42,128 nucleotides of DNA from a virus (taxonomy: Duplodnaviria > Heunggongvirae > Uroviricota > Caudoviricetes). The translations under genes and the position numbers were made by a program. Below are positions 2,071-35,904 of this stretch, piece by piece (the stretch's first letter is position 1; every line of letters starts with the position of its first letter). Under the pieces are notes generated by a model. The model had not been told where the DNA came from, ran no database searches, and was given only the letters and a program-made list of their open reading frames with translations. The DNA lies in the IMG/VR virus record IMGVR_UViG_2744054914_000003; one strand, given 5' to 3'.

Positions 2071-3464
2071 GCTATACCTCTCTTTTTCATGGCATCGAGC
2101 AGGATGTCCTGCACTGTTCGTTTTGAGTTGCGCCGCTCCATCACCATTTCGTCCATAGTGTCGGCAGCAATAATGTGGTGAATAAATACCGGACGATTGT
2201 GTCCGGCCTGTATCTGCCTGGTGGGGCCGATACGTTCAATAATTTGCTGATATTGCTCCAGGTCCCACCAGTGTGAGAAAAATACCAGTATATTTCCGCC
2301 GTCCTGCATGTTCAGGCCGTGGCCCGCGCTGGCTGGGTGTGCAAAGAGAACAGGAATCTTTCCGGAATTCCAGTCGCGCAGTGTCTGTGGATCCTGGTCG
2401 AGGTGACGACCGCGAGGGAATGCTTTAAGCAAGCGTTCAAGATCGTGTTTCCAGTGATAAGCAACCAGCACAGGTGCGCCAGCTGCTTCGGTCAGTATGC
2501 TGTCCAGCGCCTGTAGTTTGGTGTCATGCAGTTCTGACCAACTTCCGGTGTCGTCTGTGTATACTGCGCCACTGGCGATTTGAAGACACTTCAGTGTCTT
2601 TGCCGCGGCGTTCGGTGCTTCGATGCCTTCGCCATTCAGCTCGAGGAACATTTCCTTTTCCATTTCACGATACTGCTGACGGGCCTTCGGCGGCATATCC
2701 ACGCGGATTACGTTATGGATGGGGTCTTTGATATCGAACCAGTCGGCCGCATCTAGCGAGAGGGTCACATCGGCTAATGCTCGCTGTATTTCACCCTGTG
2801 AGTGAGCAAAAGGCTCCAGTTTAGTCCAGCTCTGTCCCGGAAACTGTATCGAGTTGAACCAGCGTGAGGTAAACGCACCGTAAGTGCGCCCGAGACGTTG
2901 CCCTTGGTCCACAAACCACGATTGTCCCCACAAATCTACCAGGCCGTTCGGTGCTGGCGTACCGGTGAGATTTATCCAGCGCCGGACATACTTATGCGCC
3001 ACTTTGCCCAGTGCCGCCGCGCGCTTACCACCACCTCGCAGCCGGAAGGATTTTAGCCGGGTGCTTTCATCTGGAATGACAATACCGAACGGCCATCGTT
3101 CTCCCAATTCTTCAACCAGCCAGACAAGGTTATCGTAGTTGATGGTGAACACGCTTGCGTTGCTGTTCGCCAGCGCCGTAGAGCGCGCTTTGGCATTACC
3201 AACAATCGGCTGCACCTCGATATTGCGCAAATGCCCCCACTTCACTGCTTCATCCGGCCAGGTGTTTGCTGCAACACGTAGCGGCGCGAGGACCAGTGCG
3301 GGGCGTGTTTCTGCCCCTGCCATAAAAAGATCTTCCAGCGCAGTGAGCGTTGCCACGGTTTTACCCATTCCCATACCTGCCCAGATGTTGCAGCGCATAA
3401 TGTCGATTTGATGATTGATGATGAGATCTTGGTAGGGGTGAGGTGAAAATATAGCATAGTCCAT
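2067..3464 (-). CDS. SNF2-family (DEAD/DEAH-box) helicase
   Basis: Walker A GMGMGKT and DExx box (VIPDESTRLKS); ATG at 3464 preceded by GGAGAT; belongs to the recalled phage module DUF2800/DUF2815/PolA/VRR-NUC/SNF2. Confidence 0.8.
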   Translation of the reverse strand: MDYAIFSPHPYQDLIINHQIDIMRCNIWAGMGMGKTVATLTALEDLFMAGAETRPALVLAPLRVAANTWPDEAVKWGHLRNIEVQPIVGNAKARSTALANSNASVFTINYDNLVWLVEELGERWPFGIVIPDESTRLKSFRLRGGGKRAAALGKVAHKYVRRWINLTGTPAPNGLVDLWGQSWFVDQGQRLGRTYGAFTSRWFNSIQFPGQSWTKLEPFAHSQGEIQRALADVTLSLDAADWFDIKDPIHNVIRVDMPPKARQQYREMEKEMFLELNGEGIEAPNAAAKTLKCLQIASGAVYTDDTGSWSELHDTKLQALDSILTEAAGAPVLVAYHWKHDLERLLKAFPRGRHLDQDPQTLRDWNSGKIPVLFAHPASAGHGLNMQDGGNILVFFSHWWDLEQYQQIIERIGPTRQIQAGHNRPVFIHHIIAADTMDEMVMERRNSKRTVQDILLDAMKKRGIA

Positions 3465-3531
3465 GGTATTGTATCTCCATGAATGAACTTATGTAGTAAT
3501 AGCTTAATTATTTATTTCGAAAGGAACAGTT

Positions 3532-4410
3532 ATGACCTCAGCTTATACAGATGTCCAGCAAGAAGAAAATATTACTGATAAATTAGTTGTTAAATATGAT
3601 GGTCCCGCACTAGCAGATCATAAAATAGATTTGGATGTTTTAACTGAGTCATTGAATGGACTAAACAACTTGCTTAAAGAAGTTAATTTGGTTGTCAATG
3701 GCACTAGTGAGTGTATTAATGTTGAGGTTGAGCCTTTTAAGGAAGGCTCATTTGAGTATTTGATTGATGTTATTCAAAATCCACTTGACCATTTGAATAT
3801 ATTAAGCATTATTGGGCTTGGAGGTACAACTGCACTCGCAGCAGGAAATACTCTCATTGACTTAATTCGTCAGATCAATGGTAGGCAAATAAAACGGTTG
3901 ACTTTAACAGCGGAAGGAGACTGTAAAATAGTTATGGATGATGGTGAGGAAATTATAGCCCCGTCATATTTCCGGCCTTTACTTGCCTCACCAAGCATAC
4001 GCAAATCCTTATCGAAGTTAATTCATAATCCTTTGCAAAAGGAAGGATACGAATCGCTTAAAATTTCAACTCAACAGGGGGTTGAGCTGATTAAGGTGCA
4101 CGAAGATAATATTGAACCGTTCAGATATAGGCGCGTTCCTGTAGTGCAGTCCTTGTCTGAAAGGGTGATTGAAGAGGCTCTAATCACATTTTTGACTATT
4201 CATAAGGATAAAAACACAGGCTGGCGAGTCAACTATGGCGATGACACAATCAGCGTGTCTATAGAAGATACTGAGTTCTTACAACGTGTTAGTACGGGAA
4301 GAGAACCTGGTGTTTTTAGTGATGCTTACTGCGTTGATTTGCTCGTCCGTGAGAACTTGAATTCGCTGGACAAAACGTACATAGTTGTTAAAGTACACGG
4401 TATCTTATAG
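3532..4410 (+). CDS. Hypothetical soluble protein, gene 1 of AT-rich three-gene moron
   Basis: 292-aa ORF, ATG preceded by AAGGAACA; about 30-35% GC against >50% in flanking phage genes; no hydrophobic helix or catalytic motif recognised by eye. Confidence 0.6.
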   Translation: MTSAYTDVQQEENITDKLVVKYDGPALADHKIDLDVLTESLNGLNNLLKEVNLVVNGTSECINVEVEPFKEGSFEYLIDVIQNPLDHLNILSIIGLGGTTALAAGNTLIDLIRQINGRQIKRLTLTAEGDCKIVMDDGEEIIAPSYFRPLLASPSIRKSLSKLIHNPLQKEGYESLKISTQQGVELIKVHEDNIEPFRYRRVPVVQSLSERVIEEALITFLTIHKDKNTGWRVNYGDDTISVSIEDTEFLQRVSTGREPGVFSDAYCVDLLVRENLNSLDKTYIVVKVHGIL

Positions 4411-4433
4411 TAGATTCACATGGGGAGGGGGCT

Positions 4434-4682
4434 ATGATTGCTTTTGCTTTTTGGCTGGCTTTTTTTAGCCTGCTTCCCGTACTATATTGGGTTCTTAAGA
4501 TGGGGTTTGACCGGTTACGCTTTGCGCTTATGCCTAAACATCATCTTGTTCTTGAATGTGTTGACTCAGAAGGAGTTGTCCGTCGCGATGTCGTTGATGT
4601 CTCTTCTGATGATGAATTTTACAAAATTGCAATGAATGCCATTCGTGCTGGAAGATCAGTCAAAGGAGGGACGTTTGAGTAG
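4434..4682 (+). CDS. Small membrane protein, gene 2 of AT-rich moron
   Basis: 82-aa ORF, ATG preceded by GGGGAGGGGG; N-terminal hydrophobic helix (IAFAFWLAFFSLLPVLYWVL) then charged soluble tail; stop TAG at 4680-4682 overlaps next gene's start. Confidence 0.5.
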   Translation: MIAFAFWLAFFSLLPVLYWVLKMGFDRLRFALMPKHHLVLECVDSEGVVRRDVVDVSSDDEFYKIAMNAIRAGRSVKGGTFE

Positions 4683-5205
4683 CGCTTCTAAACCTGATAG
4701 CTACGAAAAAGTCCCTCTGATTTCTAATGTTGCTGCTGGTGGCATCACTGGTTTTTTAACATTACTGGTGTCCTCGTGGGACGGTCGTTTTCCGTATATT
4801 GGTTCTGATTTAAATACAATAAAGCCATTTCTTTTATTAATGCTTCCCAGTTGCGCTATGTTTCTGGCGCATTGGATAAAGTCGATTGGGTTTAAATGGT
4901 CCTTAGGTAGCGTTAATCGACAGTTATTAAGCATTAATAAGAAGAAAGAAAAAGAACTTCGCCGTGATATTGAAAAGTACAAAAATGTTATTTCTAATGA
5001 AAAGATAGAGGACTTTAAAAGTCAACTTGAACAAGTATTACAAGATCGTCATGATATTATTTCTAATAATTACGCACAGAAACTAAGAGAAAGAAATTAT
5101 ACGCAAGAAAAATATCATGAGCATAAACAAACCGCTGCAAATGATAATATTGAGCTGCAAAGCATACTGGAGAATCAGAAGTTCAATCAAAAAGGCATTG
5201 ACTAA
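4675..5205 (+). CDS. Membrane protein with two hydrophobic helices and K/E-rich coiled-coil C-terminus, gene 3 of AT-rich moron
   Basis: In-frame TTG at 4675 lies 5 nt after strong AAGGAGGG and overlaps gene 2 stop by 8 nt; alternative ATG at 4636 lacks a ribosome-binding site. Hydrophobic segments (VAAGGITGFLTLLVSSW; FLLLMLPSCAMFLAHWI). Confidence 0.5.
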   Translation: MSSASKPDSYEKVPLISNVAAGGITGFLTLLVSSWDGRFPYIGSDLNTIKPFLLLMLPSCAMFLAHWIKSIGFKWSLGSVNRQLLSINKKKEKELRRDIEKYKNVISNEKIEDFKSQLEQVLQDRHDIISNNYAQKLRERNYTQEKYHEHKQTAANDNIELQSILENQKFNQKGID

Positions 5206-5209
5206 ATTT

Positions 5210-5479
5210 TTATAATATCCTCTCTAGGTTCTTGCTATCCAGCACCACTACGGTAAAGCCCAGTTTTCGCAGACGTTCATGTTCGCGCAATTGGTCAGGC
5301 CGTGGTGGCTTGCCGGGAGATTTACATTCAACGAAAACGATACGACCACCTGGTAGCAGGACAATGCGATCCGGTACCGAGCGGTGACCGGGAGATACAA
5401 ACTTAAAGGCCACTCCGCCAGCTTTTTTCACTTCAGCGACGAGGTGCTTTTCGATAAGGCTTTCACGTTCATAGGCCAT
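5210..5479 (-). CDS. VRR-NUC domain nuclease
   Basis: PD-(D/E)xK-like motif (DRIVLL ... VFVECKSPG); longest ORF extends to 5506 but start at MAYERESL is more plausible. Confidence 0.7.
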   Translation of the reverse strand: MAYERESLIEKHLVAEVKKAGGVAFKFVSPGHRSVPDRIVLLPGGRIVFVECKSPGKPPRPDQLREHERLRKLGFTVVVLDSKNLERIL

Positions 5480-5768
5480 CTGAATCCCACTCTTCAAAAA
5501 GCACATTCAATTCCAGTTTCTCTGCCAACGCGTTTTCTGCACGTGCGCCAGCAGAGTACTCCCACTCTTTGAGCATATAAATCGTATCGGCACAGCGAAG
5601 CATTGCGAGGCAGATGTCCATATACTGAGCCTGTGTCAAACCATTGGGTAAAGTTGCGGGGTTAAGCACAACATATCCCTTGTCCGTTAGCCTCTTTGCT
5701 GCGGAATGAAAAGCCGGGCGGTTAAATTGCTCGTAACCGCTCATCGGCCCGGCAACGTAAACGATCAT
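5469..5768 (-). CDS. DUF4406-like (nucleoside 2-deoxyribosyltransferase-like) phage protein
   Basis: 99-aa ORF with N-terminal VYVAGPMSG motif recalled for this family; ATG at 5768. Confidence 0.55.
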   Translation of the reverse strand: MIVYVAGPMSGYEQFNRPAFHSAAKRLTDKGYVVLNPATLPNGLTQAQYMDICLAMLRCADTIYMLKEWEYSAGARAENALAEKLELNVLFEEWDSDGL

Positions 5769-12861: not shown

Positions 12862-13536
12862 TTAGTACATACGTAGCGCGGATTTGGCGATCCCCGCCAC
12901 GTAATGGATTTTTTCAATGTTTTCGCGTGGTACTCTGACTGGTGGATGATCTTCATTTACAGACATTAGATGGAACAGGCCATCGCGTTCGAACAAGAAG
13001 GTTTTAACCATGACCTCACCTTCCCGGGTAACCACAAGTACTTCATCACCAGGAGTGTAGTCGTGGTTGGGTTCGACGATTACGAACTCCCCCTCTTTGA
13101 TTCTAGGCATCATTGAATCACCAACACATTTCAGGGCGTATGCATCTTCATCCTTTGTCGGCCAGTATATGAAACCATCACTGCTACCTACTGAATATTG
13201 GGTGTCGCTCCAAAGTCCTCCAACGCCTAGCTGAGTGTTTCCCAAAACAGGTACTTTATTAAACCTAAGAGAAATATACGTTTTTATACCTGTCGCGTCC
13301 TCTTTCTCCAGTTCTTGAAGGCTCCTTTCTGCCAAGTCTATTGGTGACACGTGGAAGTAGTCGGCGATCTGCTTTAACGTTGCGTATTTCGGATCTTTCA
13401 CCTCTCCTGATACCAGCCTGTGTAGCGTTGGTTGGTTCAGCTGTAACCGACGTGCCAGCTCAGTTATCGAGCTTATCTTGGCTTTGTCCATCAGGTACTT
13501 GATGTTTTGAGAAAGGATATCGGTAGTATCAATCAT
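12862..13536 (-). CDS. cI: CI-like phage repressor (HTH N-terminus, S24 LexA-like peptidase C-terminus)
   Basis: 224-aa ORF; HTH region (SITELARRLQLNQPTLHRLVSG); S24-type domain with Ser (GDSM) and Lys (VMVKTF) regions; divergent from a cro-like gene. Confidence 0.85.
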   Translation of the reverse strand: MIDTTDILSQNIKYLMDKAKISSITELARRLQLNQPTLHRLVSGEVKDPKYATLKQIADYFHVSPIDLAERSLQELEKEDATGIKTYISLRFNKVPVLGNTQLGVGGLWSDTQYSVGSSDGFIYWPTKDEDAYALKCVGDSMMPRIKEGEFVIVEPNHDYTPGDEVLVVTREGEVMVKTFLFERDGLFHLMSVNEDHPPVRVPRENIEKIHYVAGIAKSALRMY

Positions 13537-16356: not shown

Positions 16357-16791
16357 ATGCGTAATATTCAACAGGTTTTAGAGCGCTGGGGTGGATGGGC
16401 TGCCGATAGCAACACCACAGTGAGCTGGGCTCCAATAGCGGCGGGATTTAAAGGGCTGGTAGTCAGCAGCTCGCCTGGCAGGCTGAGTTGCTGTGACGAC
16501 GATGGCCTGATTATCGATGCTTGCGTCTGTCGGCTGCAGCAGGTCCGTAAGCCTGAGGAACTGGACGTCATTATGCTGTACTACGTCTACGGGTTAAGCA
16601 AACGTGAGATAGGGCGGCGGCGTCGCTGTTCTGAAGGATTTATCCGCCAGCAGTTGCAGGTAGCAGAGGGATTCATTGAGGGGTGTCTCTGCATGCTGGG
16701 TGTGAGCCTTCAGATGGATCCTGAGGTCGAAATTCAAAGGGATGAAAAAAGTATTAGTGCGCTACGCAAAAACTGCGCTACGCTGGTATGA
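16357..16791 (+). CDS. Q-like late antiterminator
   Basis: 144-aa ORF; N-terminus (MRNIQQVLERWGGWAA...AGFKGL...CCDDD) resembles Q proteins of lambdoid E. coli prophages as I recall them; immediately upstream of the lysis cassette. Confidence 0.65.
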   Translation: MRNIQQVLERWGGWAADSNTTVSWAPIAAGFKGLVVSSSPGRLSCCDDDGLIIDACVCRLQQVRKPEELDVIMLYYVYGLSKREIGRRRRCSEGFIRQQLQVAEGFIEGCLCMLGVSLQMDPEVEIQRDEKSISALRKNCATLV

Positions 16792-29729: not shown

Positions 29730-29906
29730 CGTTTAACAGCCTGCCGGACGGGCTGTCCTACCTTCTCAATCCGGTTGACGCCGGGTTAATTCCTTATACA
29801 GCACTTAAAGATGGCTCTGTCGATTTGTACGATATTGCTCTTTTGAATGACCATCTGGCGGTAAAAGCGGATAACCAGCGGCGCATTGAGAAATGGAGAG
29901 AGGATA

Positions 29907-31895
29907 ATGAACGCTGAAACTATTAAAGATTTCCTCGTCTCGCTTGGCTTCAGTGTGGATGATGCAGGAGCGAAAAAGTTCGGTTCTGTCCTCGCCGGTA
30001 CAACTGCAAATGTCATCAAAATGGGGCTGGCCGTTGAAGGAGCCGCGCTGTCCGTGGTGGCCTTCACGGCTAAGATCGCCTCCGGTCTGGATAATCTTTA
30101 CTGGGCGTCACAGCGCACTGGAGCGACAGTCCAGGGAATTCAGTCTATTGGCTATGCGGTTTCGCAGGTTGGCGGCAGCGTGGACGCTGCGCGATCTTCT
30201 CTGGAAAGCCTCTCCCGGTTTATTCGCAACAATCCCGGTGCAGAAGGCTTTCTGAATCGCCTGGGCGTACAGACCCGTGATGCCAGCGGTAACATGCGTG
30301 ACATGGCCGCTATCTTTACGGGCGTTGGACAGAAACTCAGTAGCATGCCGTATTACCGGGCTAACCAGTATGCGCAGATGCTGGGTATTGACGAAAATAC
30401 CCTTATGGCGATGCGTCGGGGTGTGGGTGGTTTCTCCGGGCAGTACAGCGCAATGGCGAAAGCTATCGGCTTCAATGCTGACGAGGCGGCCAGAAGCTCC
30501 AACAAATTTATGACCTCCCTGCGTGAGTTTAGCGCGATGGCAGGCATGGCCCGTGACAAAATCGGCTCTAATCTTGCGGGTGGACTTGCGGGTTCGCTGG
30601 ACACCCTGCGCCGCCATATCCTGGACAACTTCCCTCGTATCGAGCAGACCCTGACGAAAGCCATAAAAGGCATTCTGGCGCTCGGGGATATTATCGGGCG
30701 GCTGTTCTTCAGACTGATTGAGGGGACATCAGGCCTTATCACCTGGTGGCAATCGCTGGATAAGCAAACGCGGGAGTTGATCTCGCTGTTTGGCGCACTG
30801 ACGATTGCGCTGCGCATTCTGAACAGTACGTTCTGGATGTCGCCGGTTGGCCTCATTACCGCGCTGGCGGCGGGGATTGCCCTCCTGTGGGAGGACTATC
30901 AGACCTGGAAGGAAGGCGGCGACAGCCTGATTGACTGGGGCAAGTGGAAACCGGAGGTCGATGCCGCGCTGAAGATGGTTCGTGACCTTAAAACGACCGT
31001 TAACGATCTGGCGAAAGCGCTGGCGAAACTACTCAATATTGACCCCAAATCATGGTCCCTGAAGTGGGATTTCAGCAACTTCATCGACCAGATGGGCGAA
31101 TTCAGCAAAATGCTGAACATGATCGCCGACCTGCTCAACGCTATCAAAGATGGACGCTGGGCTGATGCCGTCAGCATCGGCAAACAGATACTTAATCAGG
31201 GCAGCGAAAATCCGTCAGCGATGCCGATGGTTACAGACAGCGCTAACAGTACTGCCGACTGGATTAAAGAGCACTGGGGATTCGATCCCCGCAGCGTGGG
31301 CCGGACGGTACGCGGCTGGTTTGGTGATGATGAGCCGGAACAACATGCACAGGCTACGAAACGAGGAGAACGGAATAACAATCCGGGAAACCTTAATTTT
31401 GCTGGTCAGGCAGGGGCTTCTCTTGAACGCCCGGGCGGGCGATTTGCCAGATTTGAAACTGCCTTTGATGGATTACGGGCTCTTGCTCGTCAGTTAATGC
31501 TGTACGCCGGACGGGGAATAAACAGTGTGGAGAAAATTATCTCTACCTGGGCACCTGCGTCTGATAATAACAACACAACTGCGTATATCAGGGCTGTATC
31601 GCAACGACTGGGAGTGGATCCCCGGGCTGCCCTGAATATGAGCGATCCGCAAACCATGTCAGCATTGATGAGCAGCATTATCCAGCATGAAAATGGAAGA
31701 AATATCTATTCTCGAGAGCTGATTAATAAGGCTGCCGTGGCGGGAATTAGTGGCAAAATGACAGAGGTTAACCAGCAAAATACTTACCACATTTACGGTG
31801 GCGGAGATCCGCACGCTGTCGGTAATGAGGTTGCACGTCGGCAACAGTCTGCAAATGCTCAGGTCATGCGAAGTAATCAGGTGAGGGTGGGTTAG
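29907..31895 (+). CDS. Tail tape-measure protein with extra C-terminal domain
   Basis: Long Ala/Gly-rich, helix-prone ORF; ATG at 29907 preceded by GGAGAGAGGA; C-terminal about 190 aa with NNNPGNL...HENG motifs. Confidence 0.7.
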   Translation: MNAETIKDFLVSLGFSVDDAGAKKFGSVLAGTTANVIKMGLAVEGAALSVVAFTAKIASGLDNLYWASQRTGATVQGIQSIGYAVSQVGGSVDAARSSLESLSRFIRNNPGAEGFLNRLGVQTRDASGNMRDMAAIFTGVGQKLSSMPYYRANQYAQMLGIDENTLMAMRRGVGGFSGQYSAMAKAIGFNADEAARSSNKFMTSLREFSAMAGMARDKIGSNLAGGLAGSLDTLRRHILDNFPRIEQTLTKAIKGILALGDIIGRLFFRLIEGTSGLITWWQSLDKQTRELISLFGALTIALRILNSTFWMSPVGLITALAAGIALLWEDYQTWKEGGDSLIDWGKWKPEVDAALKMVRDLKTTVNDLAKALAKLLNIDPKSWSLKWDFSNFIDQMGEFSKMLNMIADLLNAIKDGRWADAVSIGKQILNQGSENPSAMPMVTDSANSTADWIKEHWGFDPRSVGRTVRGWFGDDEPEQHAQATKRGERNNNPGNLNFAGQAGASLERPGGRFARFETAFDGLRALARQLMLYAGRGINSVEKIISTWAPASDNNNTTAYIRAVSQRLGVDPRAALNMSDPQTMSALMSSIIQHENGRNIYSRELINKAAVAGISGKMTEVNQQNTYHIYGGGDPHAVGNEVARRQQSANAQVMRSNQVRVG

Positions 31896-32482
31896 TGGAT
31901 ATTCTCTCTACACTTTTTCATCAGCAGAGCAGAAAAATAGGAATGATTGTTCCCAGTGTTGTTATTTCAGAGAAGCATACAGATATGCTTGAAATAACAG
32001 AGCATCCGGTAGAGGTTGGGGCCGCTGTCGCTGATCATGCCTATAAAAAACCGTCAGAAGTGGTGATGGAGGTTGGTTTCGCCGGTGGCGGCGCATTGCT
32101 GGATTTTGCCAGTAATCTGACGGCTACCAGCCTGCTCGGCCTGAGTCCTCAGCAGACGTATCAGGAGCTACTGGATCTGCAGGAAAGCCGTATCCCCTTC
32201 GATGTGGTAACCGGTAAACGACTGTACAGCAACATGTTGATCCGGGCGTTGGAAGTGACGACGGACAAGACAACCGAAAACGTCCTGTCCGCCGTCCTCA
32301 CCCTGAGGGAGGTCATTATCTCCCGGACACAGCAGATTACCGTCGCGGATAAAACCAACATGAAGGAAGGGGCCAGCACGTCGGCGGTACAGAACAGCGG
32401 CAACAAAACCACAAAGCCTCCAGATACTTCACTGCTGAAAAGCATCACGGGTAACGTGGCGTCATTACTGGGGGGCGGCTAA
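31895..32482 (+). CDS. Tail protein
   Basis: 195-aa ORF, overlapping stop/start with the tape-measure gene. Confidence 0.45.
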   Translation: MDILSTLFHQQSRKIGMIVPSVVISEKHTDMLEITEHPVEVGAAVADHAYKKPSEVVMEVGFAGGGALLDFASNLTATSLLGLSPQQTYQELLDLQESRIPFDVVTGKRLYSNMLIRALEVTTDKTTENVLSAVLTLREVIISRTQQITVADKTNMKEGASTSAVQNSGNKTTKPPDTSLLKSITGNVASLLGGG

Positions 32483-32784
32483 TGACAATTCAGGAAATTC
32501 CGCTGACAGCGGACAACCAGCAGTTCAGCATCGTCCTGGGGGGGGGCACCTGGCGGATTAGCATCATATGGCGCGATCTGTACTGGATTATGGACCTGCA
32601 GAACGACAGAGGGGAGCCGGTAATCTCCGGTATTCCTCTTGTCACTGGTGCTGACCTGCTGGCGCAGTACGCCTGTATGGAGCTTGGTTTTAAGCTGGTG
32701 GTGGTCTGTGATGACAACACACAGGATTACCCCACAAAAACTGACCTGGGCGGTCGCAGCCATTTACTGGTATCAACGGAGTAA
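32482..32784 (+). CDS. Tail protein
   Basis: 100-aa ORF in tail operon. Confidence 0.4.
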   Translation: MTIQEIPLTADNQQFSIVLGGGTWRISIIWRDLYWIMDLQNDRGEPVISGIPLVTGADLLAQYACMELGFKLVVVCDDNTQDYPTKTDLGGRSHLLVSTE

Positions 32785-32786
32785 GC

Positions 32787-33848
32787 ATGTCACAGAACTG
32801 GATGAGACATTTCGAGCTGCAGCTTGTGGACGGGAACGGTCAGGGAATTGAGCTAAGTGATTTCAAAGTCACCTTTACGATCGACTGGTTCAACATCAGC
32901 AGCGCGTCCCGGGTAGGGACTATCAAAATTTATAACCTCTCGGCAGATACTGTGAACCGAATTACCGGGCAGGAGTTTTCGAAAGTGCGTCTGATTGCGG
33001 GTTACGACGGTATCGCGCCGGAGGTGTCAGCAAGCGACGTAGGGACCGTGCGGGAAGTTGACGCGGCGGACGTGGGCCAGAGAGATGGCCGCAACTACGG
33101 ACTGATTTTCAGCGGTGAAATTCGCTACTCGGTCACAGGAAAAGACAGTCCGGTTGATACCTACGTCCTGATTCAGGCAGCAGATACTGATCTGGCTTTT
33201 GCCACCAGTATAACCTCACAGACGCTGGCTGCCGGTTACACGGTCGCTGATGTGAACCGTGCGCTGATGAAAGACTTCGAAGCCAAAGGCGCGACCGAAG
33301 GCCTGACGCCTGAAATGCCTGCTACTGTATTCCCCCGGGGGCGGGTACTCTTTGGCATGACGCGGCATCTAATGGATAACGTAGCCGGACAATGTGGCGC
33401 AACATGGCAATTCGTGGACGGTCAGCGCCAGATGGTGGCGAATAACGAATATGTTCACGAAGCGATTGTGCTCAACAGCGCTACCGGGCTTATTGGCATG
33501 CCGCAGCAGACTATCGGTAACGGCGTAAACATCCGCGCGCTTATTAATCCGAACATCCGGGTTAACGGGCTCATTCAGCTGGATCAGGCTTCCGTCTATC
33601 GTACCGCGTTGTCGAACAACGATATTGCGATGGTTGGTGGTCAGATCACCGACCAGAACACGGACGGAAATATCACGCTCAGCGGCACCACATCGCAGCC
33701 TGCCAGCATCGCAACGGATGGCGTTTATATTGTGCGCGGGATTATGTACACTGGCGACACAAGGGGCCAGGCGTGGTACATGGATATGATGTGCGAAGCG
33801 CGTGGCGCGGCGGATCTGTATACGCAATCGGCTTTGCAAAGGGGATGA
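32787..33848 (+). CDS. Tail/baseplate hub-like protein
   Basis: 353-aa ORF between tape-measure-distal genes and baseplate genes. Confidence 0.45.
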   Translation: MSQNWMRHFELQLVDGNGQGIELSDFKVTFTIDWFNISSASRVGTIKIYNLSADTVNRITGQEFSKVRLIAGYDGIAPEVSASDVGTVREVDAADVGQRDGRNYGLIFSGEIRYSVTGKDSPVDTYVLIQAADTDLAFATSITSQTLAAGYTVADVNRALMKDFEAKGATEGLTPEMPATVFPRGRVLFGMTRHLMDNVAGQCGATWQFVDGQRQMVANNEYVHEAIVLNSATGLIGMPQQTIGNGVNIRALINPNIRVNGLIQLDQASVYRTALSNNDIAMVGGQITDQNTDGNITLSGTTSQPASIATDGVYIVRGIMYTGDTRGQAWYMDMMCEARGAADLYTQSALQRG

Positions 33849-33851
33849 GCA

Positions 33852-34196
33852 ATGAGGGGTATTATTTTTCTGTTAGCTGCCTTTTCTGCGTGCAGCGCGT
33901 GGGCGGATGGCTTCACGGTTAAATGCGGTGGCTACACTATGGTTGCAAACCAGGGCGAGTTATCGACTATCAACGGTGAAAGAGTTACCTCTCAAAAAAT
34001 CACCGAACTGGGTACCAATGGTTTGAAAGTAGACATGGGGCTTATGCCTGCCAAAGACGGTAACAACTACGGCTTTGAATACATTCGTCGCCCTGGTACT
34101 GAAACGCGATTCCTGAATGTCCAGCTTCTGCAGAACAGCATGGATGCGCCGAAAATCATCGGATCTTTCCCTTGTAAAAAAGTGGCTGGGCGATGA
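33852..34196 (+). CDS. Secreted protein or lipoprotein with N-terminal signal peptide
   Basis: 114-aa ORF; signal-like N-terminus MRGIIFLLAAFSACSAWADG. Confidence 0.5.
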   Translation: MRGIIFLLAAFSACSAWADGFTVKCGGYTMVANQGELSTINGERVTSQKITELGTNGLKVDMGLMPAKDGNNYGFEYIRRPGTETRFLNVQLLQNSMDAPKIIGSFPCKKVAGR

Positions 34197-34361
34197 TTTT
34201 TGACGTCCATAATATTATGGATGAACTGTTGCCAATTGCGCTAAATTTAACAAAATAATACTGGTTAACGCATTTTTTGAACCATCTGTACACAGTAGTT
34301 GTCTATACTTTACCTTAAAGGTAAACTCTGCGCTCCACTGATGTTCACTATGGGAGGGGAT

Positions 34362-34601
34362 ATGAGGAAAATCGTTAATCGTTACTTAGCCGCTGCCGGT
34401 AGTGTTATGGACATTATGCCGACTACAGATTACTGGCAATATGCTGCTTCTGGATCTGATTGTCGGGCAATAAGAAGTGATGTTAAAGTCATTGCAAGTG
34501 ACATGAACAGAGTTATCAGGTATGAGTTCAAAACCCCGCAAGCAGGCGGCCGTTCTCAAAAAGCATCAGGAAAACAAAGCGTCGCAAAAAGCCGTTCCTG
34601 A
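34362..34601 (+). CDS. Small hypothetical protein (uncertain; overlaps the next ORF in another frame)
   Basis: ATG at 34362 preceded by GGGAGGGG; longest ORF from 34299; AT-rich promoter-like region upstream at 34200-34300. Confidence 0.3.
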   Translation: MRKIVNRYLAAAGSVMDIMPTTDYWQYAASGSDCRAIRSDVKVIASDMNRVIRYEFKTPQAGGRSQKASGKQSVAKSRS

Positions 34602-35094
34602 TTCGGATGGTATCGACGAAGATATTGATTCCTCGGAATATGATGAGTCTCAGGAAGTAGTGGAAAAGCTGTCTGCAGTTGCCAACCTTGATCCTGAGCT
34701 AAAATCGAAGTTAACACCTGAACTTCTTGAGAGAGTTTCTAAGAACCCGAAGGTTATTGCCATGTTTCAGCAGGAGTCTTTTCAGGGACCACTCCCACCT
34801 CCTGCTATGCTCTTACAATATAATCAAATATTACCCGGCGGCGCTGAGAGAATTTTCAGGCTAACCGAAAAAGAGCAAGAGCATAGGCATAAGACGCAAA
34901 GTGATGCATTACTTGGTGCGGTTTCACGCGACAAACGTGGGCAATGGATGGGATTTTGCATTGCAATGGTAGTGCTTATAATGGCTGCGTTTTTTGCTAA
35001 TCGCGGTAACACTTGGTTCGCAGGTACTCTTGCTACTTTAGATCTCGTAGGATTAACTACAGTGTTTGTTTATGGTAGGAAGAAACCTAAATAA
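34522..35094 (+). CDS. Membrane protein with K-rich N-terminus and two C-terminal hydrophobic helices (tail-module moron)
   Basis: 190-aa ORF; hydrophobic segments (WMGFCIAMVVLIMAAFF; AGTLATLDLVGLTTVFVY); lower GC than flanking tail genes. Confidence 0.5.
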   Translation: MSSKPRKQAAVLKKHQENKASQKAVPDSDGIDEDIDSSEYDESQEVVEKLSAVANLDPELKSKLTPELLERVSKNPKVIAMFQQESFQGPLPPPAMLLQYNQILPGGAERIFRLTEKEQEHRHKTQSDALLGAVSRDKRGQWMGFCIAMVVLIMAAFFANRGNTWFAGTLATLDLVGLTTVFVYGRKKPK

Positions 35095-35151
35095 TCCATA
35101 CATCCTTTCAAACCCGCTTCGGCGGGTTTTTTGCTTTCTGGAGCCTACTAA

Positions 35152-35904
35152 ATGGCCGTATCTGACCAGACCCGCAGCGGCGACCTTGCCGAAACATTCA
35201 AATCTGAACGGGAAACAACAAAGAACCAGATCCGTGTCGCCTTGCCTGGCATTATTCAGTCATTCGCTCCTGATGCGGTGACGGCGGTTGTACAGCCTGC
35301 TATCCGTTACGTTGAAATTGATAACGACGGCAACCGCATTACCAAAAATTACCCATTGCTGGTGGATGTGCCAGTGGTATTCCCGCGTGGCGGAGGCTGT
35401 ACGCTAACGTTTCCAGTTAAAGCCGGTGATGAATGTTTGGTGATTTTTGCCGATCGTTGTATTGATTTCTGGTGGCAGAGTGGCGGGATACAGGAGCCGG
35501 TCGATGACAGAATGCATGATTTATCGGATGCGTTTTGTATTGTCGGTCCCCAGTCGCAGGCAAGGAAGATTAGCGGTATTAATACCAGTGCCACACAGTT
35601 GCGTAGTGATGACGGCAGCACCTATTTTGAGCTTAATCCTGATACCAGGAAAATTAAAATTGTCGCTCCGGGGGGCCTTGATGTGGTTGCCCCTCTGGCT
35701 GATTTTTCTGAGAAAGTAACCATTCATGGCCTGTTAACCTGGATGGGAGGCATGGTGGGGTCTGTTGTTTCTGGTGTGGCTTCAAAAATCACTGGTGCTG
35801 TTGAGTTTTTGGGTAGCGTGAAGGCTAACGGCAAGCCAATCGATGATACGCACACTCATGGTGGTGTTCAGCGCGGTGGAAGCAATACCGACGGAGTAAA
35901 CTGA
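35152..35904 (+). CDS. Baseplate central spike protein (gpV / Mu gp45-like)
   Basis: 250-aa ORF at the start of the baseplate cluster; Gly-rich C-terminal region. Confidence 0.6.
   Translation: MAVSDQTRSGDLAETFKSERETTKNQIRVALPGIIQSFAPDAVTAVVQPAIRYVEIDNDGNRITKNYPLLVDVPVVFPRGGGCTLTFPVKAGDECLVIFADRCIDFWWQSGGIQEPVDDRMHDLSDAFCIVGPQSQARKISGINTSATQLRSDDGSTYFELNPDTRKIKIVAPGGLDVVAPLADFSEKVTIHGLLTWMGGMVGSVVSGVASKITGAVEFLGSVKANGKPIDDTHTHGGVQRGGSNTDGVN

What the first reader, a model, noticed from the sequence alone, without database searches (positions are those of the whole stretch)
33852..35100. Moron with its own promoter-like region in the middle of the tail module: secreted protein plus membrane protein
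Seen in sequence: between the baseplate-hub-like gene and the baseplate spike gene lie a 114-aa signal-peptide protein, an AT-rich promoter-like region (34200-34300), a small ORF and a 190-aa protein with two C-terminal hydrophobic helices. GC drops relative to flanking tail genes, and the 3' end is followed by a hairpin (AACCCGCTTCGGCGGGTTTTTTG at about 35111-35133). Inference: an independently transcribed accessory unit likely expressed from the prophage, possibly exclusion or host-envelope modification.
Basis: partly seen in the sequence, partly recalled or inferred. Interest (0 to 1): 0.45.

Follow-up and report, generated by a model that had tools for sequence, protein, structure and literature searches.

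The report
Accessory gene slot in prophage tail
Between two baseplate genes of an E. coli prophage lies a swap-in slot for accessory genes, filled here by a horizontally acquired pair (an unannotated small protein plus a DUF2335 inner-membrane protein) whose function is untested but is most plausibly protection against other phages; the layout is a textbook "moron", and only the cargo is uncharacterised.

Summary
The reading needs splitting.

- **114-aa exported protein (33852-34196).** It is not part of the insert. It is a conserved backbone gene of this SEN34/YP3-like myovirus group and is coupled to the hub gene.
- **The true variable unit (about 34197-35107).** It is AT-rich: GC 0.36-0.45 against 0.52-0.55 upstream. 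It holds two overlapping genes: an unannotated 79-aa ORF (34362-34601) and a 190-aa DUF2335 protein (34522-35094) with a cytoplasmic N-terminal domain and a C-terminal two-helix membrane hairpin.
- **The terminator (35110-35135).** It belongs to the slot, not to this cargo. Relatives carrying other cargo keep it.

About 353 of 5426 complete E. coli genomes carry the backbone. Only 16 carry this cargo. Others hold DUF4282, YafO-toxin, HEPN or unknown genes.

The small-ORF + DUF2335 pair recurs in 15 of 16 contexts examined, once as a fusion, across Proteobacteria, Actinobacteria and Firmicutes phages. It always sits at moron-type positions.

Function is untested. My best guess is a lysogen-expressed inner-membrane exclusion or abortive-infection pair. 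No known defence family matches.

Verdict: an ordinary moron architecture carrying an uncharacterised, widely conserved cargo.

The parts
32787..33848 (+). Baseplate hub gene. This is the left backbone flank of the slot and is not part of the accessory unit.
   Evidence: phrog_196 'baseplate hub' 1.1e-88 and PF22759 7e-05. It is conserved in all relatives.
33852..34196 (+). Conserved exported 114-aa protein (phrog_3443; PGAP names one homolog 'STY1065/STY2022 family phage-derived protein'). It is a backbone gene coupled to the hub gene, with a Sec signal peptide and two invariant Cys. Its function is unknown. It is not part of the variable cargo.
34140..34212 (+). Strong RNA hairpin spanning the 3' end and stop codon of the 114-aa gene, at the left junction of the variable region. 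Its significance is unknown.
   Evidence: -26.8 kcal/mol, z -4.3, 0 of 200 shuffles as stable. Inverted repeat I2. The 3' arm lies in cargo-specific sequence.
34197..34361 (+). AT-rich non-coding spacer (GC 0.364). The best conserved promoter candidate is TTGTCT-17 nt-TAAACT at 34299-34327. An alternative -10 is TATACT at 34304-34309, which reads TATAAT in relative L021. A 16-bp perfect palindrome TCCATAATATTATGGA lies at 34206-34221.
   Evidence: GC. Window and L021 are conserved from about 34266 onward, while 34217-34265 is absent in L021. A hexamer scan places the -10 element 32-50 nt upstream of the small-ORF ATG in most independent module contexts. -35 and -10 are retained in the C. koseri versus phage RAH1 alignment while the spacer diverges. 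There is no statistical enrichment of promoter-like sites.
34362..34601 (+). Small ORF of 79 aa, basic and soluble. RefSeq does not annotate it. It is the conserved partner of the DUF2335 protein, with N-terminal motif R-Y-L-x-A-x-G-S-x-x-D-x-x-P-x-x-x-Y and a second motif D-x3-(V/I)-(G)-x-D-(F/L/M). Its last 80 nt overlap the DUF2335 gene in another frame.
   Evidence: Strong SD GGGAGGGG. phrog_26284 2e-12. Homologous small ORFs lie directly upstream of, or overlapping, DUF2335 genes in 14 other contexts, and the motif is fused to DUF2335 in Xenorhabdus. phmmer against 1.84 billion representatives found 12 relatives, 11 of them 64-76 aa long. It is absent from the PGAP annotation.
34522..35094 (+). 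DUF2335 (PF10097) protein of 190 aa. It has a variable acidic N-terminus and a conserved cytoplasmic core G-P-L-P-P-P-x2-L-x2-Y-x2-I-L-P-G-G-A-E-R-I-F-x-(L/M)-x-E-K-E-Q-x-H-R-H. Then come R-G-Q-W-M-G-F and a two-helix membrane hairpin with predicted N-in/C-in topology.
   Evidence: PF10097 1.8e-18 and phrog_3996 ('membrane protein', moron category) 1.2e-46. 45 homologs and alignment A1. AF2 gives pLDDT about 88 over residues 90-187, all helical. Hydropathy and charge distribution. No match in PADLOC, NCBIfam, PDB sequences or Foldseek PDB.
35110..35135 (+). Intrinsic terminator (stem 35110-35129 plus T-run), immediately upstream of the spike RBS. It is a conserved feature of the slot, not of this cargo.
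   Evidence: 52 E. coli genomes that lack this cargo match only window 35108-35150. The hairpin is aligned in BH100N, WAT, E2348/69 and 689R2, each with a different cargo.
35152..35904 (+). Baseplate central spike gene. This is the right backbone flank of the slot.
   Evidence: PF18352 2.7e-43 and Apex motif 1e-4. PGAP calls it a 'membrane-puncturing spike protein'.
16357..16791 (+). Q-type antiterminator of the same prophage. This is context: it explains how late transcription can pass the slot terminator.
   Evidence: PF06530 1.1e-50.

Best explanation
The region is two things side by side.

(A) 33852-34196 is a conserved, late-operon-coupled gene for a small exported, disulfide-bonded protein. 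It belongs to the backbone of this myovirus-type prophage lineage.

(B) About 34197-35107 is the current occupant of a dedicated accessory-gene slot between that gene and the spike gene. The occupant is a horizontally acquired two-gene module. It consists of a 79-aa soluble protein and, translationally linked to it by an 80-nt overlap, a DUF2335 protein. The DUF2335 protein has its conserved domain in the cytoplasm and is anchored in the inner membrane by a C-terminal helical hairpin.

How I think it works (inferred):
- In the lysogen the module is transcribed from its own weak sigma-70 promoter in the AT-rich spacer. The candidate is 34299-34327.
- Transcription stops at the slot's terminator (35110-35135), so the downstream baseplate genes stay silent.
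- During lytic growth, Q-modified RNA polymerase (Q gene 16357-16791) reads through the cargo and the terminator.
- The two proteins form one complex at the inner membrane. That complex protects the lysogen from superinfecting phages. It could block genome entry at the membrane (superinfection exclusion). Alternatively it could collapse the membrane on sensing infection (abortive infection, with the small protein as sensor or regulator and the hairpin as effector).

Shown: the anatomy, the horizontal acquisition, the variability of the slot, and the cross-phylum conservation and physical linkage of the two genes.

Inferred: the promoter, expression in the lysogen, complex formation, and the anti-phage function.
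For: Slot and cargo:
- Related phages and prophages share hub, 114-aa gene, terminator and spike but carry unrelated genes in between.
- The backbone is in 353 of 5426 E. coli genomes.
- Cargo counts in those genomes: DUF2335 pair 16, DUF4282 84, YafO-toxin pair 37, WAT-type pair 33, TL20 HEPN pair 3.
- Cargo GC3 is 0.36-0.39, against 0.59-0.65 in the upstream tail genes.

Transcription logic:
- A 165-nt AT-rich spacer sits in an otherwise tightly packed operon.
- The terminator is conserved.
- A Q antiterminator is present in the same prophage.
- Promoter-like hexamers lie 32-50 nt upstream of the small-ORF ATG in most independent contexts, and are retained between C. koseri and phage RAH1.
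- Each module copy elsewhere is also followed by a terminator.

The two genes are one unit:
- The small ORF is present in 15 of 16 DUF2335 contexts examined. These cover E. coli, Citrobacter, Proteus, Providencia, Klebsiella, Pluralibacter, Pseudomonas, Arthrobacter, Streptococcus and metagenomes.
- It usually overlaps the DUF2335 start.
- It is fused to DUF2335 in several Xenorhabdus species.

Lysogeny-type positions:
- Directly downstream of the cI-like repressor on the same strand in Proteus, which is the rexAB position.
- Next to gtrA/gtrB-type O-antigen modification genes at a prophage end in Citrobacter.
- Next to integrases in Pseudomonas phage MD8 and Arthrobacter phage Gusanita.
- After the lysin at the prophage end in Streptococcus.
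- Inside tail modules, beside a colicin DNase and its immunity gene, in Providencia.
- All phages carrying it are temperate.

Precedent: HK97 gene 15 is a moron in the tail operon that encodes an inner-membrane superinfection-exclusion protein (PMC3594210).
Against: - No expression data exist. Promoter-like hexamers are weak (8/12) and not statistically enriched.
- The cargo has the same orientation as the late operon, so it could be expressed only late.
- No model in PADLOC 2.0 matches any of the three proteins.
- No experimental report on DUF2335 in phage defence was found.
- The periplasmic loop of the hairpin is only about 5 residues. Direct contact with an incoming tail in the periplasm is therefore unlikely, which weakens the simple 'block the injection channel' version.
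- The only published phenotype for a DUF2335 gene is reduced potato maceration by a Dickeya zeae deletion mutant (PMC8809351). That points to host physiology rather than phage defence.
- In one distant context the small ORF is missing and a Panacea (antitoxin-type) gene follows DUF2335. That hints at toxin behaviour.
Confidence: 0.45

Rival explanations
1. Lysogenic-conversion or host-fitness factor unrelated to phage defence. On this reading the membrane-anchored pair modulates envelope or stress physiology or virulence of the lysogen. It is expressed from the prophage, as in the best explanation.
For: - Deletion of a DUF2335 gene in Dickeya zeae MS2 reduced maceration of potato slices (PMC8809351).
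- In Citrobacter the module sits beside gtr-type O-antigen modification genes.
- Xenorhabdus species retain a fused copy in a degraded cI-cro remnant with no other phage genes, which suggests domestication for the host's benefit.
- PHROGs files the family under 'moron, auxiliary metabolic gene and host takeover'.
Against: - The Dickeya result is one line in a screen, and the text I read does not describe complementation.
- The family's distribution is overwhelmingly in temperate phages of unrelated hosts, Gram-positive and Gram-negative. That argues for a target common to all of them, such as phage infection or the membrane itself, rather than a host-specific trait.
- Other occupants of the same slot (YafO toxin, HEPN proteins) are of the conflict-system type.
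Confidence: 0.2
2. Toxin-antitoxin (addiction) module. On this reading the DUF2335 hairpin protein is a membrane-depolarising toxin. The upstream small protein is its antitoxin, stabilising the prophage or acting as an abortive-infection switch.
For: - Bicistronic, overlapping two-gene layout with the small gene first.
- The same slot holds a YafO-family toxin pair and HEPN pairs in other prophages.
- In one metagenomic context a SocA/Panacea antitoxin-domain gene lies 10 nt downstream of a DUF2335 gene that lacks the small ORF.
- Panacea antitoxins are known to neutralise membrane-depolarising toxins that have a charged N-terminus and C-terminal TM segments (PMC8832971).
Against: - The natural fusion of the small protein's N-terminal motif to DUF2335 in Xenorhabdus fits cooperating subunits better than antagonists.
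- The small protein has no recognisable DNA-binding or antitoxin domain.
- The DUF2335 gene has a weak SD and would be made in lower amounts than the small protein. That is compatible with TA but not diagnostic.
- No link between DUF2335 and the validated PanT clusters was found in the paper or in the supplementary files held, one of which was cut when stored.
Confidence: 0.15
3. Late lytic-cycle function only. On this reading the cargo is simply co-transcribed with the tail genes by Q-antiterminated polymerase and serves the phage during infection. Examples would be lysis timing, blocking re-adsorption or superinfection late in infection, or membrane anchoring of assembly. It would have no role in the lysogen.
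For: - Same strand as the late operon, with no terminator between the 114-aa gene and the cargo.
- Promoter evidence is weak.
- A Q antiterminator is present.
- In Xenorhabdus the fused gene lies downstream of cro, in the lytic direction.
Against: - The cargo is dispensable for this phage type. Only 16 of about 353 backbones carry it, and unrelated genes replace it.
- In other phages the module sits on the lysogeny side: downstream of cI, beside int, or on the strand opposite the structural genes in Uetakevirus.
- A conserved terminator at the end of the slot has an obvious use only if transcription starts inside the slot.
Confidence: 0.12
4. Regulator of the lysis-lysogeny decision. An example would be a cIII-like modulator of a membrane protease such as FtsH.
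For: Frequent adjacency to cI, cro or int in several phages. Membrane location.
Against: - The module is equally found in tail modules and at prophage ends.
- It is optional within one phage lineage.
- No similarity to known regulators was found.
Confidence: 0.05

Closest known systems
HK97 gene 15 moron (YebO-family inner-membrane superinfection-exclusion protein)
   Same: - An accessory gene inserted inside the tail operon of a Q-antiterminated temperate coliphage.
- Deviant GC and a terminator at its end.
- An inner-membrane product.
- Expressed from the prophage and blocks genome entry (PMC3594210; HK97 annotation).
   Different: - No sequence similarity (BLASTP finds nothing).
- gp15 is a single 62-aa protein. 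Here there is a two-gene module with a 190-aa protein whose conserved domain is cytoplasmic.
- The insertion point differs: hub/spike here, against chaperone/tape measure in HK97.
- Function is untested here.
Lambda rexA/rexB (prophage-expressed two-component abortive infection with a membrane effector)
   Same: - Two adjacent genes, one product soluble and one in the inner membrane.
- In Proteus prophages the DUF2335 pair occupies the rexAB position, directly downstream of the cI-like repressor on the same strand (lambda map).
   Different: - No homology to RexB (hhalign probability 0.9%).
- The sizes are inverted: the soluble partner is tiny here, whereas RexA is 279 aa.
- RexB has four TM helices (my own knowledge). 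Here there is a two-helix hairpin.
- In the window the pair is not in the immunity region.
Accessory or defence hotspots of temperate phages (for example the P2/P4 hotspots; 'hyper-variability hotspots' surveyed in bioRxiv 10.1101/2024.10.15.618418)
   Same: A fixed position between conserved core genes where unrelated one- or two-gene cassettes alternate among close relatives. The cassettes include toxin and HEPN-type genes.
   Different: - This hotspot lies inside the baseplate gene block of a SEN34/YP3-like myovirus.
- It has a conserved terminator as its right border and a conserved exported-protein gene as its left border.
- I found no description of this particular hotspot, but I did not read the hotspot surveys in full. 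The P2/P4 comparison rests on my own knowledge.
Membrane-depolarising PanT toxins of PanAT toxin-antitoxin systems
   Same: [quoted passage not shown]
- Occurrence on prophages.
- One DUF2335 gene is followed at 10 nt by a Panacea-domain gene.
   Different: - The window has no Panacea gene.
- The partner here is an unrelated small upstream ORF.
- The paper's text and the supplementary files held, one of them cut when stored, do not mention DUF2335.
- No toxicity data exist.
For the neighbouring 114-aa protein: small secreted or lipoprotein exclusion factors encoded next to tail genes (T4 Spackle, T5 Llp, Cor of phi80/N15/HK022)
   Same: A small signal-peptide protein encoded among tail or receptor-binding genes, which cannot be a cytoplasmically assembled virion part. 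Cor is cited in PMC3594210; the rest is my own knowledge.
   Different: - No sequence or fold similarity to anything solved.
- It is not a lipoprotein: it has an AxA site and no lipobox in most homologs.
- Function is entirely untested.

Membership tests
Moron (Juhala/Hendrix sense) | Extra DNA that is present in one genome and absent or replaced in close relatives, between conserved genes | tested here: met
   Variable segment about 34197-35107 between the conserved 114-aa gene and the terminator/spike.
Moron (Juhala/Hendrix sense) | Base composition differs from the neighbouring genes | tested here: met
   GC 0.36-0.45 (GC3 0.36-0.39) against 0.52-0.55 (GC3 0.59-0.65) upstream.
Moron (Juhala/Hendrix sense) | Own promoter | tested here: inconclusive
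   Only 8-9/12 hexamer matches, with no enrichment over shuffles. The conserved candidate is 34299-34327. Similar sites lie 32-50 nt upstream of the ATG in other contexts.
Moron (Juhala/Hendrix sense) | Own terminator | tested here: met
   Strong intrinsic terminator at 35110-35135. Caveat: it is shared by all occupants of the slot.
Moron (Juhala/Hendrix sense) | Expressed from the repressed prophage | not testable with these tools
   Needs lysogen RNA-seq or reporter fusions.
DUF2335 / PF10097 | Match to the Pfam model above its gathering score | tested here: met
   66.6 bits against a 25-bit cut-off, E 1.8e-18, model positions 1-50 of 50.
DUF2335 / PF10097 | Predicted membrane protein (C-terminal TM helices after the conserved motif) | tested here: met
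   AF2 helices 107-160 and 164-187. Hydropathy maximum at 139-163. Conserved across 21 homologs.
Known anti-phage defence systems (PADLOC-DB 2.0) | HMM match of any component | tested here: not met
   No hit at E <= 1 for the 114-aa, 79-aa or 190-aa proteins.
HK97 gp15 / YebO superinfection-exclusion family | Sequence homology to gp15 | tested here: not met
   BLASTP gives no alignment at E <= 100.
RexAB | Homology of the membrane component to RexB | tested here: not met
   hhalign probability 0.9%.
Type II toxin-antitoxin systems | Recognisable toxin or antitoxin domain; toxicity neutralised by the partner | tested here: inconclusive
   No Pfam or NCBIfam TA domain. The layout is compatible. 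Toxicity cannot be tested here.
Sec-exported periplasmic protein (114-aa gene) | N-terminal n-h-c signal peptide with an AxA cleavage site, conserved in homologs | tested here: met
   A16 and A18 are (nearly) invariant. The hydrophobic core is variable but always present. Two Cys in the mature part are invariant. No dedicated predictor was available.
Virion structural protein (114-aa gene) | Detected in particles, or homologous to a known baseplate component | tested here: not met
   No Pfam, PDB or fold match. A cleaved signal peptide argues against cytoplasmic assembly. Proteomics cannot be tested here.

The most novel reading that the evidence does not exclude
The unannotated small ORF and the DUF2335 membrane protein together form a previously unrecognised two-component system. 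It is conserved across phyla and carried by temperate phages of Proteobacteria, Actinobacteria and Firmicutes. It would protect lysogens against other phages from the cytoplasmic face of the inner membrane. The hub/spike slot of SEN34/YP3-like prophages would be a terminator-insulated docking site that can be mined for further unknown conflict systems. Most of its other occupants have no annotation either.
Probability: 0.35. Interest if true: 0.6.

Novelty: new member of a known kind. Interest (0 to 1): 0.4.

Why it matters
If the pair is an anti-phage system, four things follow.
- It would give a function to a Pfam DUF found in temperate phages of very different bacteria.
- It would add a gene that annotation pipelines currently miss.
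- It would provide a small, easily cloned two-gene model for membrane-based exclusion or abortive infection.
- The slot itself is present in about 6.5% of complete E. coli genomes. It has at least ten different cargo configurations among the loci I opened, mostly unannotated. That makes it a convenient, well-delimited place to look for further prophage-borne conflict genes.

If the cargo turns out to be expressed only late, or to have no phenotype, this is just one more moron.

Tried and rejected
Searches that found nothing useful:
- PADLOC and NCBIfam scans of the three proteins: nothing.
- PADLOC and Pfam scans of seven alternative cargo proteins: only sub-threshold HEPN and TPR hints.
- PDB sequence searches with family profiles: nothing for DUF2335 and noise for the 114-aa family.
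- Foldseek against PDB with the DUF2335 model: no match at E < 1.
- Rfam on 33700-35300: only sub-threshold hits, one of which is just the terminator hairpin.
- Word-indexed homolog search with the small ORF: no hit, because the ORF is evidently not called in that collection. The exhaustive phmmer search gave only 12 relatives.
- Literature: no functional study of DUF2335/PF10097 in phages, and nothing on STY1065/STY2022.

Ideas I considered and rejected:
- The synonymous/non-synonymous comparison of the small ORF between the window and L021 was uninformative. There are too few changes, and the control frames look alike.
- Promoter candidate 34229-34256 (9/12): it lies in a 49-nt stretch absent from the closest relative with the same cargo.
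- Direct repeats flanking the cargo in the window: none. YP3, by contrast, has a perfect 124-nt repeat.
- Programmed frameshift fusing the small ORF to DUF2335. The frame relation is not conserved: +1 with overlap in most contexts, but in frame with an intervening stop in Proteus and Providencia. The only slippery heptamer, C-AAA-AAG, is in the DUF2335 frame.
- The Fc02 olg1/olg2 overlapping exclusion genes are unrelated to this module.
- 'DUF2335 phospholipase/Tle1-like' in T6SS and T4SS papers is a confusion with DUF2235. That is my own knowledge. PF10097 is a 50-position membrane-protein model.
- A link to validated PanT toxins: not found in the paper or in the supplementary files held.
Full report
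**1. What is in the sequence**

The window is a lambdoid-regulated, myovirus-tailed E. coli prophage. It has a cI-like HTH+S24 repressor (12862-13536, minus strand), a Q antiterminator (16357-16791), a holin, a terminase and a contractile-tail module.

In the baseplate block the genes are packed head to tail:
- tape measure with a lytic-transglycosylase end (29886-31895);
- Dit-like protein (31895-32482);
- Pam3-gp18-type plug (32482-32784);
- hub (32787-33848).

Further on come the spike (35152-35904), sheath initiator, baseplate J and wedge.

- a 114-aa ORF with a signal peptide (33852-34196);
- a 165-nt spacer with GC 0.364;
- a small ORF (34362-34601);
- a 190-aa ORF (34522-35094);
- the hairpin AACCCGCTTCGGCGGGTTTTTTG at 35111-35133.

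The GC drop is real and graded. The hub is 0.546 and the 114-aa gene 0.484. The two cargo genes are about 0.445 (GC3 0.36-0.39) and the spike is 0.502.

The hairpin is the strongest terminator-like site in 31-38 kb. Promoter-like hexamer pairs are no more frequent than in shuffled sequence. "Promoter-like" therefore rests only on AT-richness and context.

**2. The region is a variable slot, and its borders can be placed**

Megablast against phage genomes and against 5426 complete E. coli genomes shows a shared backbone with a break in the middle. Alignments of the junctions give three results.
- Similarity among relatives runs through the 114-aa gene and stops at its stop codon, at about 34190.
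- Similarity resumes at about 35108. It then covers the terminator hairpin, the spike RBS and the spike gene.
- Fifty-two E. coli genomes that lack this cargo match only window 35108-35150.

In between, related prophages and phages carry unrelated genes:

| Relative | Cargo in the slot |
|---|---|
| Yersinia phage YP3 | 266-aa protein |
| vB_EcoM-689R2 | 170-aa protein with an R-x4-H motif |
| BH100N | 257-aa protein |
| WAT | two-gene set |
| E2348/69 | two-gene set |
| TL20 | two-gene set, one gene annotated HEPN |
| BCE049 | 79-aa DUF4282 protein |
| TUM1880 | 190-aa protein plus a YafO-family toxin |
| IAI1 | unannotated 176-aa membrane protein |

The backbone is in 353 genomes. Cargo counts are 84 for DUF4282, 37 for the YafO pair, 33 for the WAT pair, 16 for the DUF2335 cargo and 3 for the TL20 pair. 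Each cargo occurs almost always once per genome, which means in this slot.

Distant Klebsiella relatives (Mulock, ST340-VIM1phi10.1) keep the same order: hub, small exported protein, one or two variable genes, spike.

**3. The 114-aa gene is backbone, not cargo**

- It starts 3 nt after the hub stop codon, behind an AAGGGGA Shine-Dalgarno sequence.
- It belongs to phrog_3443.
- It has 395 homologs, all in Enterobacteriaceae and all unnamed. One PGAP label reads 'STY1065/STY2022 family phage-derived protein'.
- The signal peptides vary, but the AxA cleavage site and about 40 mature positions are invariant, including two Cys.

It is therefore a secreted, probably disulfide-bonded periplasmic protein made with the late tail genes. 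A cleaved signal peptide makes a virion role unlikely.

In one lineage (CREC-544) a 241-aa lipoprotein takes its place. The position after the hub may therefore itself be an old, fixed accessory site for envelope proteins. I can only guess at its function. One possibility is a periplasmic self-protection or exclusion factor in the manner of Spackle, Llp or Cor. That comparison comes from my own knowledge and nothing here supports it.

**4. The cargo is a conserved two-gene module**

The 190-aa protein is a bona fide DUF2335 member (PF10097, 66.6 bits; phrog_3996). Alignment of 21 homologs shows three parts:
- a variable, acidic N-terminus;
- a conserved core, G-P-L-P-P-P-x2-L-x2-Y-x2-I-L-P-G-G-A-E-R-I-F-x-M-x-E-K-E-Q-x-H-R-H, followed by R-G-Q-W-M-G-F;
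- two hydrophobic helices.

AF2 models residues 90-187 with pLDDT about 88. One long helix runs into TM1, then a tight turn leads into TM2. Basic residues flank both ends of the hairpin and the loop is about 5 residues. The predicted topology is therefore N-in/C-in, with the conserved domain in the cytoplasm.

The small ORF has a strong SD. RefSeq does not annotate it. It is nevertheless not incidental. I examined 16 independent genomic contexts of DUF2335 genes.

| Context | Position of the module |
|---|---|
| This slot, two variants | Between the exported-protein gene and the spike |
| Citrobacter koseri | Prophage end, beside gtrA/gtrB-type genes |
| Proteus mirabilis | Immediately downstream of the cI-like repressor |
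| Klebsiella phage RAH1 | Between major tail protein and tape measure |
| Two Uetakevirus-type podoviruses | Between structural genes, which lie mostly on the opposite strand |
| Providencia rettgeri | Between tail tube and tape measure, beside a colicin DNase and its immunity gene |
| Xenorhabdus | After cI-cro in a prophage remnant |
| Pseudomonas phage MD8 | After the integrase |
| Arthrobacter phage Gusanita | Between two integrases |
| Streptococcus phage Javan433 | After the lysin at the prophage end |
| Four further contigs | Various |

In 14 of the 16 contexts a 64-116-aa ORF lies directly upstream, usually overlapping the DUF2335 start. It carries the motifs (R)-R-Y-L-x-A-x-G-S-x-L-D-x-x-P-x-x-x-Y and D-x3-(V/I)-G-x-D-(F/L). 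Two Asp are invariant even in the Actinobacteria and Firmicutes versions.

In Xenorhabdus the first motif is fused to the N-terminus of the DUF2335 core. That is a Rosetta-stone indication that the two products act together.

Only one distant context lacks the small ORF. There a Panacea-domain gene follows at 10 nt.

Each copy I read is followed by its own intrinsic terminator. Every phage that carries the module is temperate.

**5. How it probably works**

The following are shown:
- horizontal acquisition;
- a dedicated slot bordered by a conserved terminator;
- a long AT-rich leader in an otherwise gap-free operon;
- a Q antiterminator in the same prophage;
- a two-gene unit that travels intact between unrelated temperate phages and lands at positions where lysogen-expressed genes typically sit.

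From this I infer the classic moron logic.
- In the lysogen a weak promoter in the spacer drives the pair.
- The slot terminator protects the baseplate genes from being expressed.
- In lytic growth the Q-modified polymerase ignores the terminator.

The best promoter candidate is TTGTCT-17-TAAACT at 34299-34327. It is fully conserved in the 81%-identical relative L021. The tool's 9/12 hit at 34229-34256 falls in a stretch that L021 lacks.

Comparable hexamer pairs lie 32-50 nt upstream of the small-ORF ATG in most other contexts. They are retained between C. koseri and phage RAH1 while the spacer between them has diverged. This is suggestive, not proof.

For function I favour phage exclusion or abortive infection at the inner membrane. 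The precedents are HK97 gp15 (an inner-membrane exclusion protein encoded by a tail-operon moron, PMC3594210) and the rexAB-like placement in Proteus.

Three points argue for caution:
- the periplasmic loop is minimal;
- PADLOC has no match;
- the only published DUF2335 phenotype is a virulence-screen hit in Dickeya (PMC8809351).

The rivals are listed with their tests: host-fitness factor, toxin-antitoxin, late-only function and lysogeny regulator.

**6. Comparison with what is known, and novelty**

The architecture is a textbook moron or accessory hotspot. The cargo belongs to an existing Pfam DUF and an existing PHROG. Three things appear not to have been described in the sources I could search:
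- this particular hotspot, with its conserved terminator on the right and exported-protein gene on the left;
- the obligatory small partner gene of DUF2335, which annotation misses;
- any function for either.

The module has no detectable sequence similarity to gp15 or RexB and matches none of the PADLOC defence models.

I rate it a new member of a known kind and of moderate interest. It is well delimited, cheap to test, and possibly a new exclusion system. Nothing in the data is surprising for a specialist in prophage biology.

Noticed in passing
L001 (Yersinia phage YP3) 4244-4367 and 5168-5291: A perfect 124-nt direct repeat brackets YP3's cargo gene. The terminator-like hairpin, RBS and first bases (ATGG) of the spike gene are duplicated in front of the 266-aa cargo gene. 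This looks like the scar of cassette insertion or exchange by recombination at the slot's right border. No such repeat flanks the cargo in the window.
   Followed up: partly
window 34140-34212: A very stable hairpin (-26.8 kcal/mol, z -4.3) pairs the last codons of the 114-aa gene (ATGGATGCGCCGAAAATCATCG) with the first bases of the variable region (CGATGATTTTTGACGTCCAT). Its purpose is unknown. It could be an mRNA 3'-end stabiliser, an attenuator or a recombination scar.
   Followed up: partly
window 34206-34221: A 16-bp perfect palindrome TCCATAATATTATGGA lies just after the 114-aa stop codon. Half of it is deleted in the closest relative with the same cargo (L021), so it is probably not essential.
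   Followed up: partly
window 34362-34601; L003 4166-4405: The 79-aa partner ORF is not annotated by PGAP in RefSeq genomes that carry the identical locus. It is also absent from the large protein collection searched by word index. Phage RAH1 has the homologous ORF unannotated as well (L013 3784-3981).
   Followed up: yes
L019 (E. coli IAI1) 1115-1645: The slot of the IAI1 prophage holds an intact 176-aa ORF with several hydrophobic segments. RefSeq does not annotate it, leaving a 770-nt 'empty' gap.
   Followed up: no
L020 (E. coli CREC-544) 755-1480: In this relative the conserved 114-aa exported-protein gene is replaced by a 241-aa predicted lipoprotein (lipobox LTSC), directly followed by the spike gene. 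The position after the hub therefore always encodes an envelope-targeted protein.
   Followed up: no
L035 4001-4930 (metagenomic contig): A distant DUF2335 gene without the small upstream ORF is followed 10 nt downstream by a SocA/Panacea antitoxin-domain gene, near an integrase. This is a possible hint that DUF2335 proteins can behave as membrane toxins.
   Followed up: partly
L024/L025 (Xenorhabdus) 3879-5450: Several Xenorhabdus species keep a cI-cro-DUF2335 (fused type) remnant with no other phage genes nearby. It lies next to a NADAR-domain gene. This may be a domesticated copy.
   Followed up: no
literature: Three papers on T6SS/T4SS effectors call a lipase domain 'DUF2335'. This is almost certainly DUF2235 (Tle1 family). 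PF10097/DUF2335 is a 50-position membrane-protein model, so text searches for DUF2335 are contaminated.
   Followed up: partly
L022 (Providencia rettgeri) 2236-5528: A moron cluster inside a siphovirus-type tail module carries a cloacin/colicin-type DNase bacteriocin with its immunity gene. It lies directly upstream of the small-ORF + DUF2335 pair.
   Followed up: no
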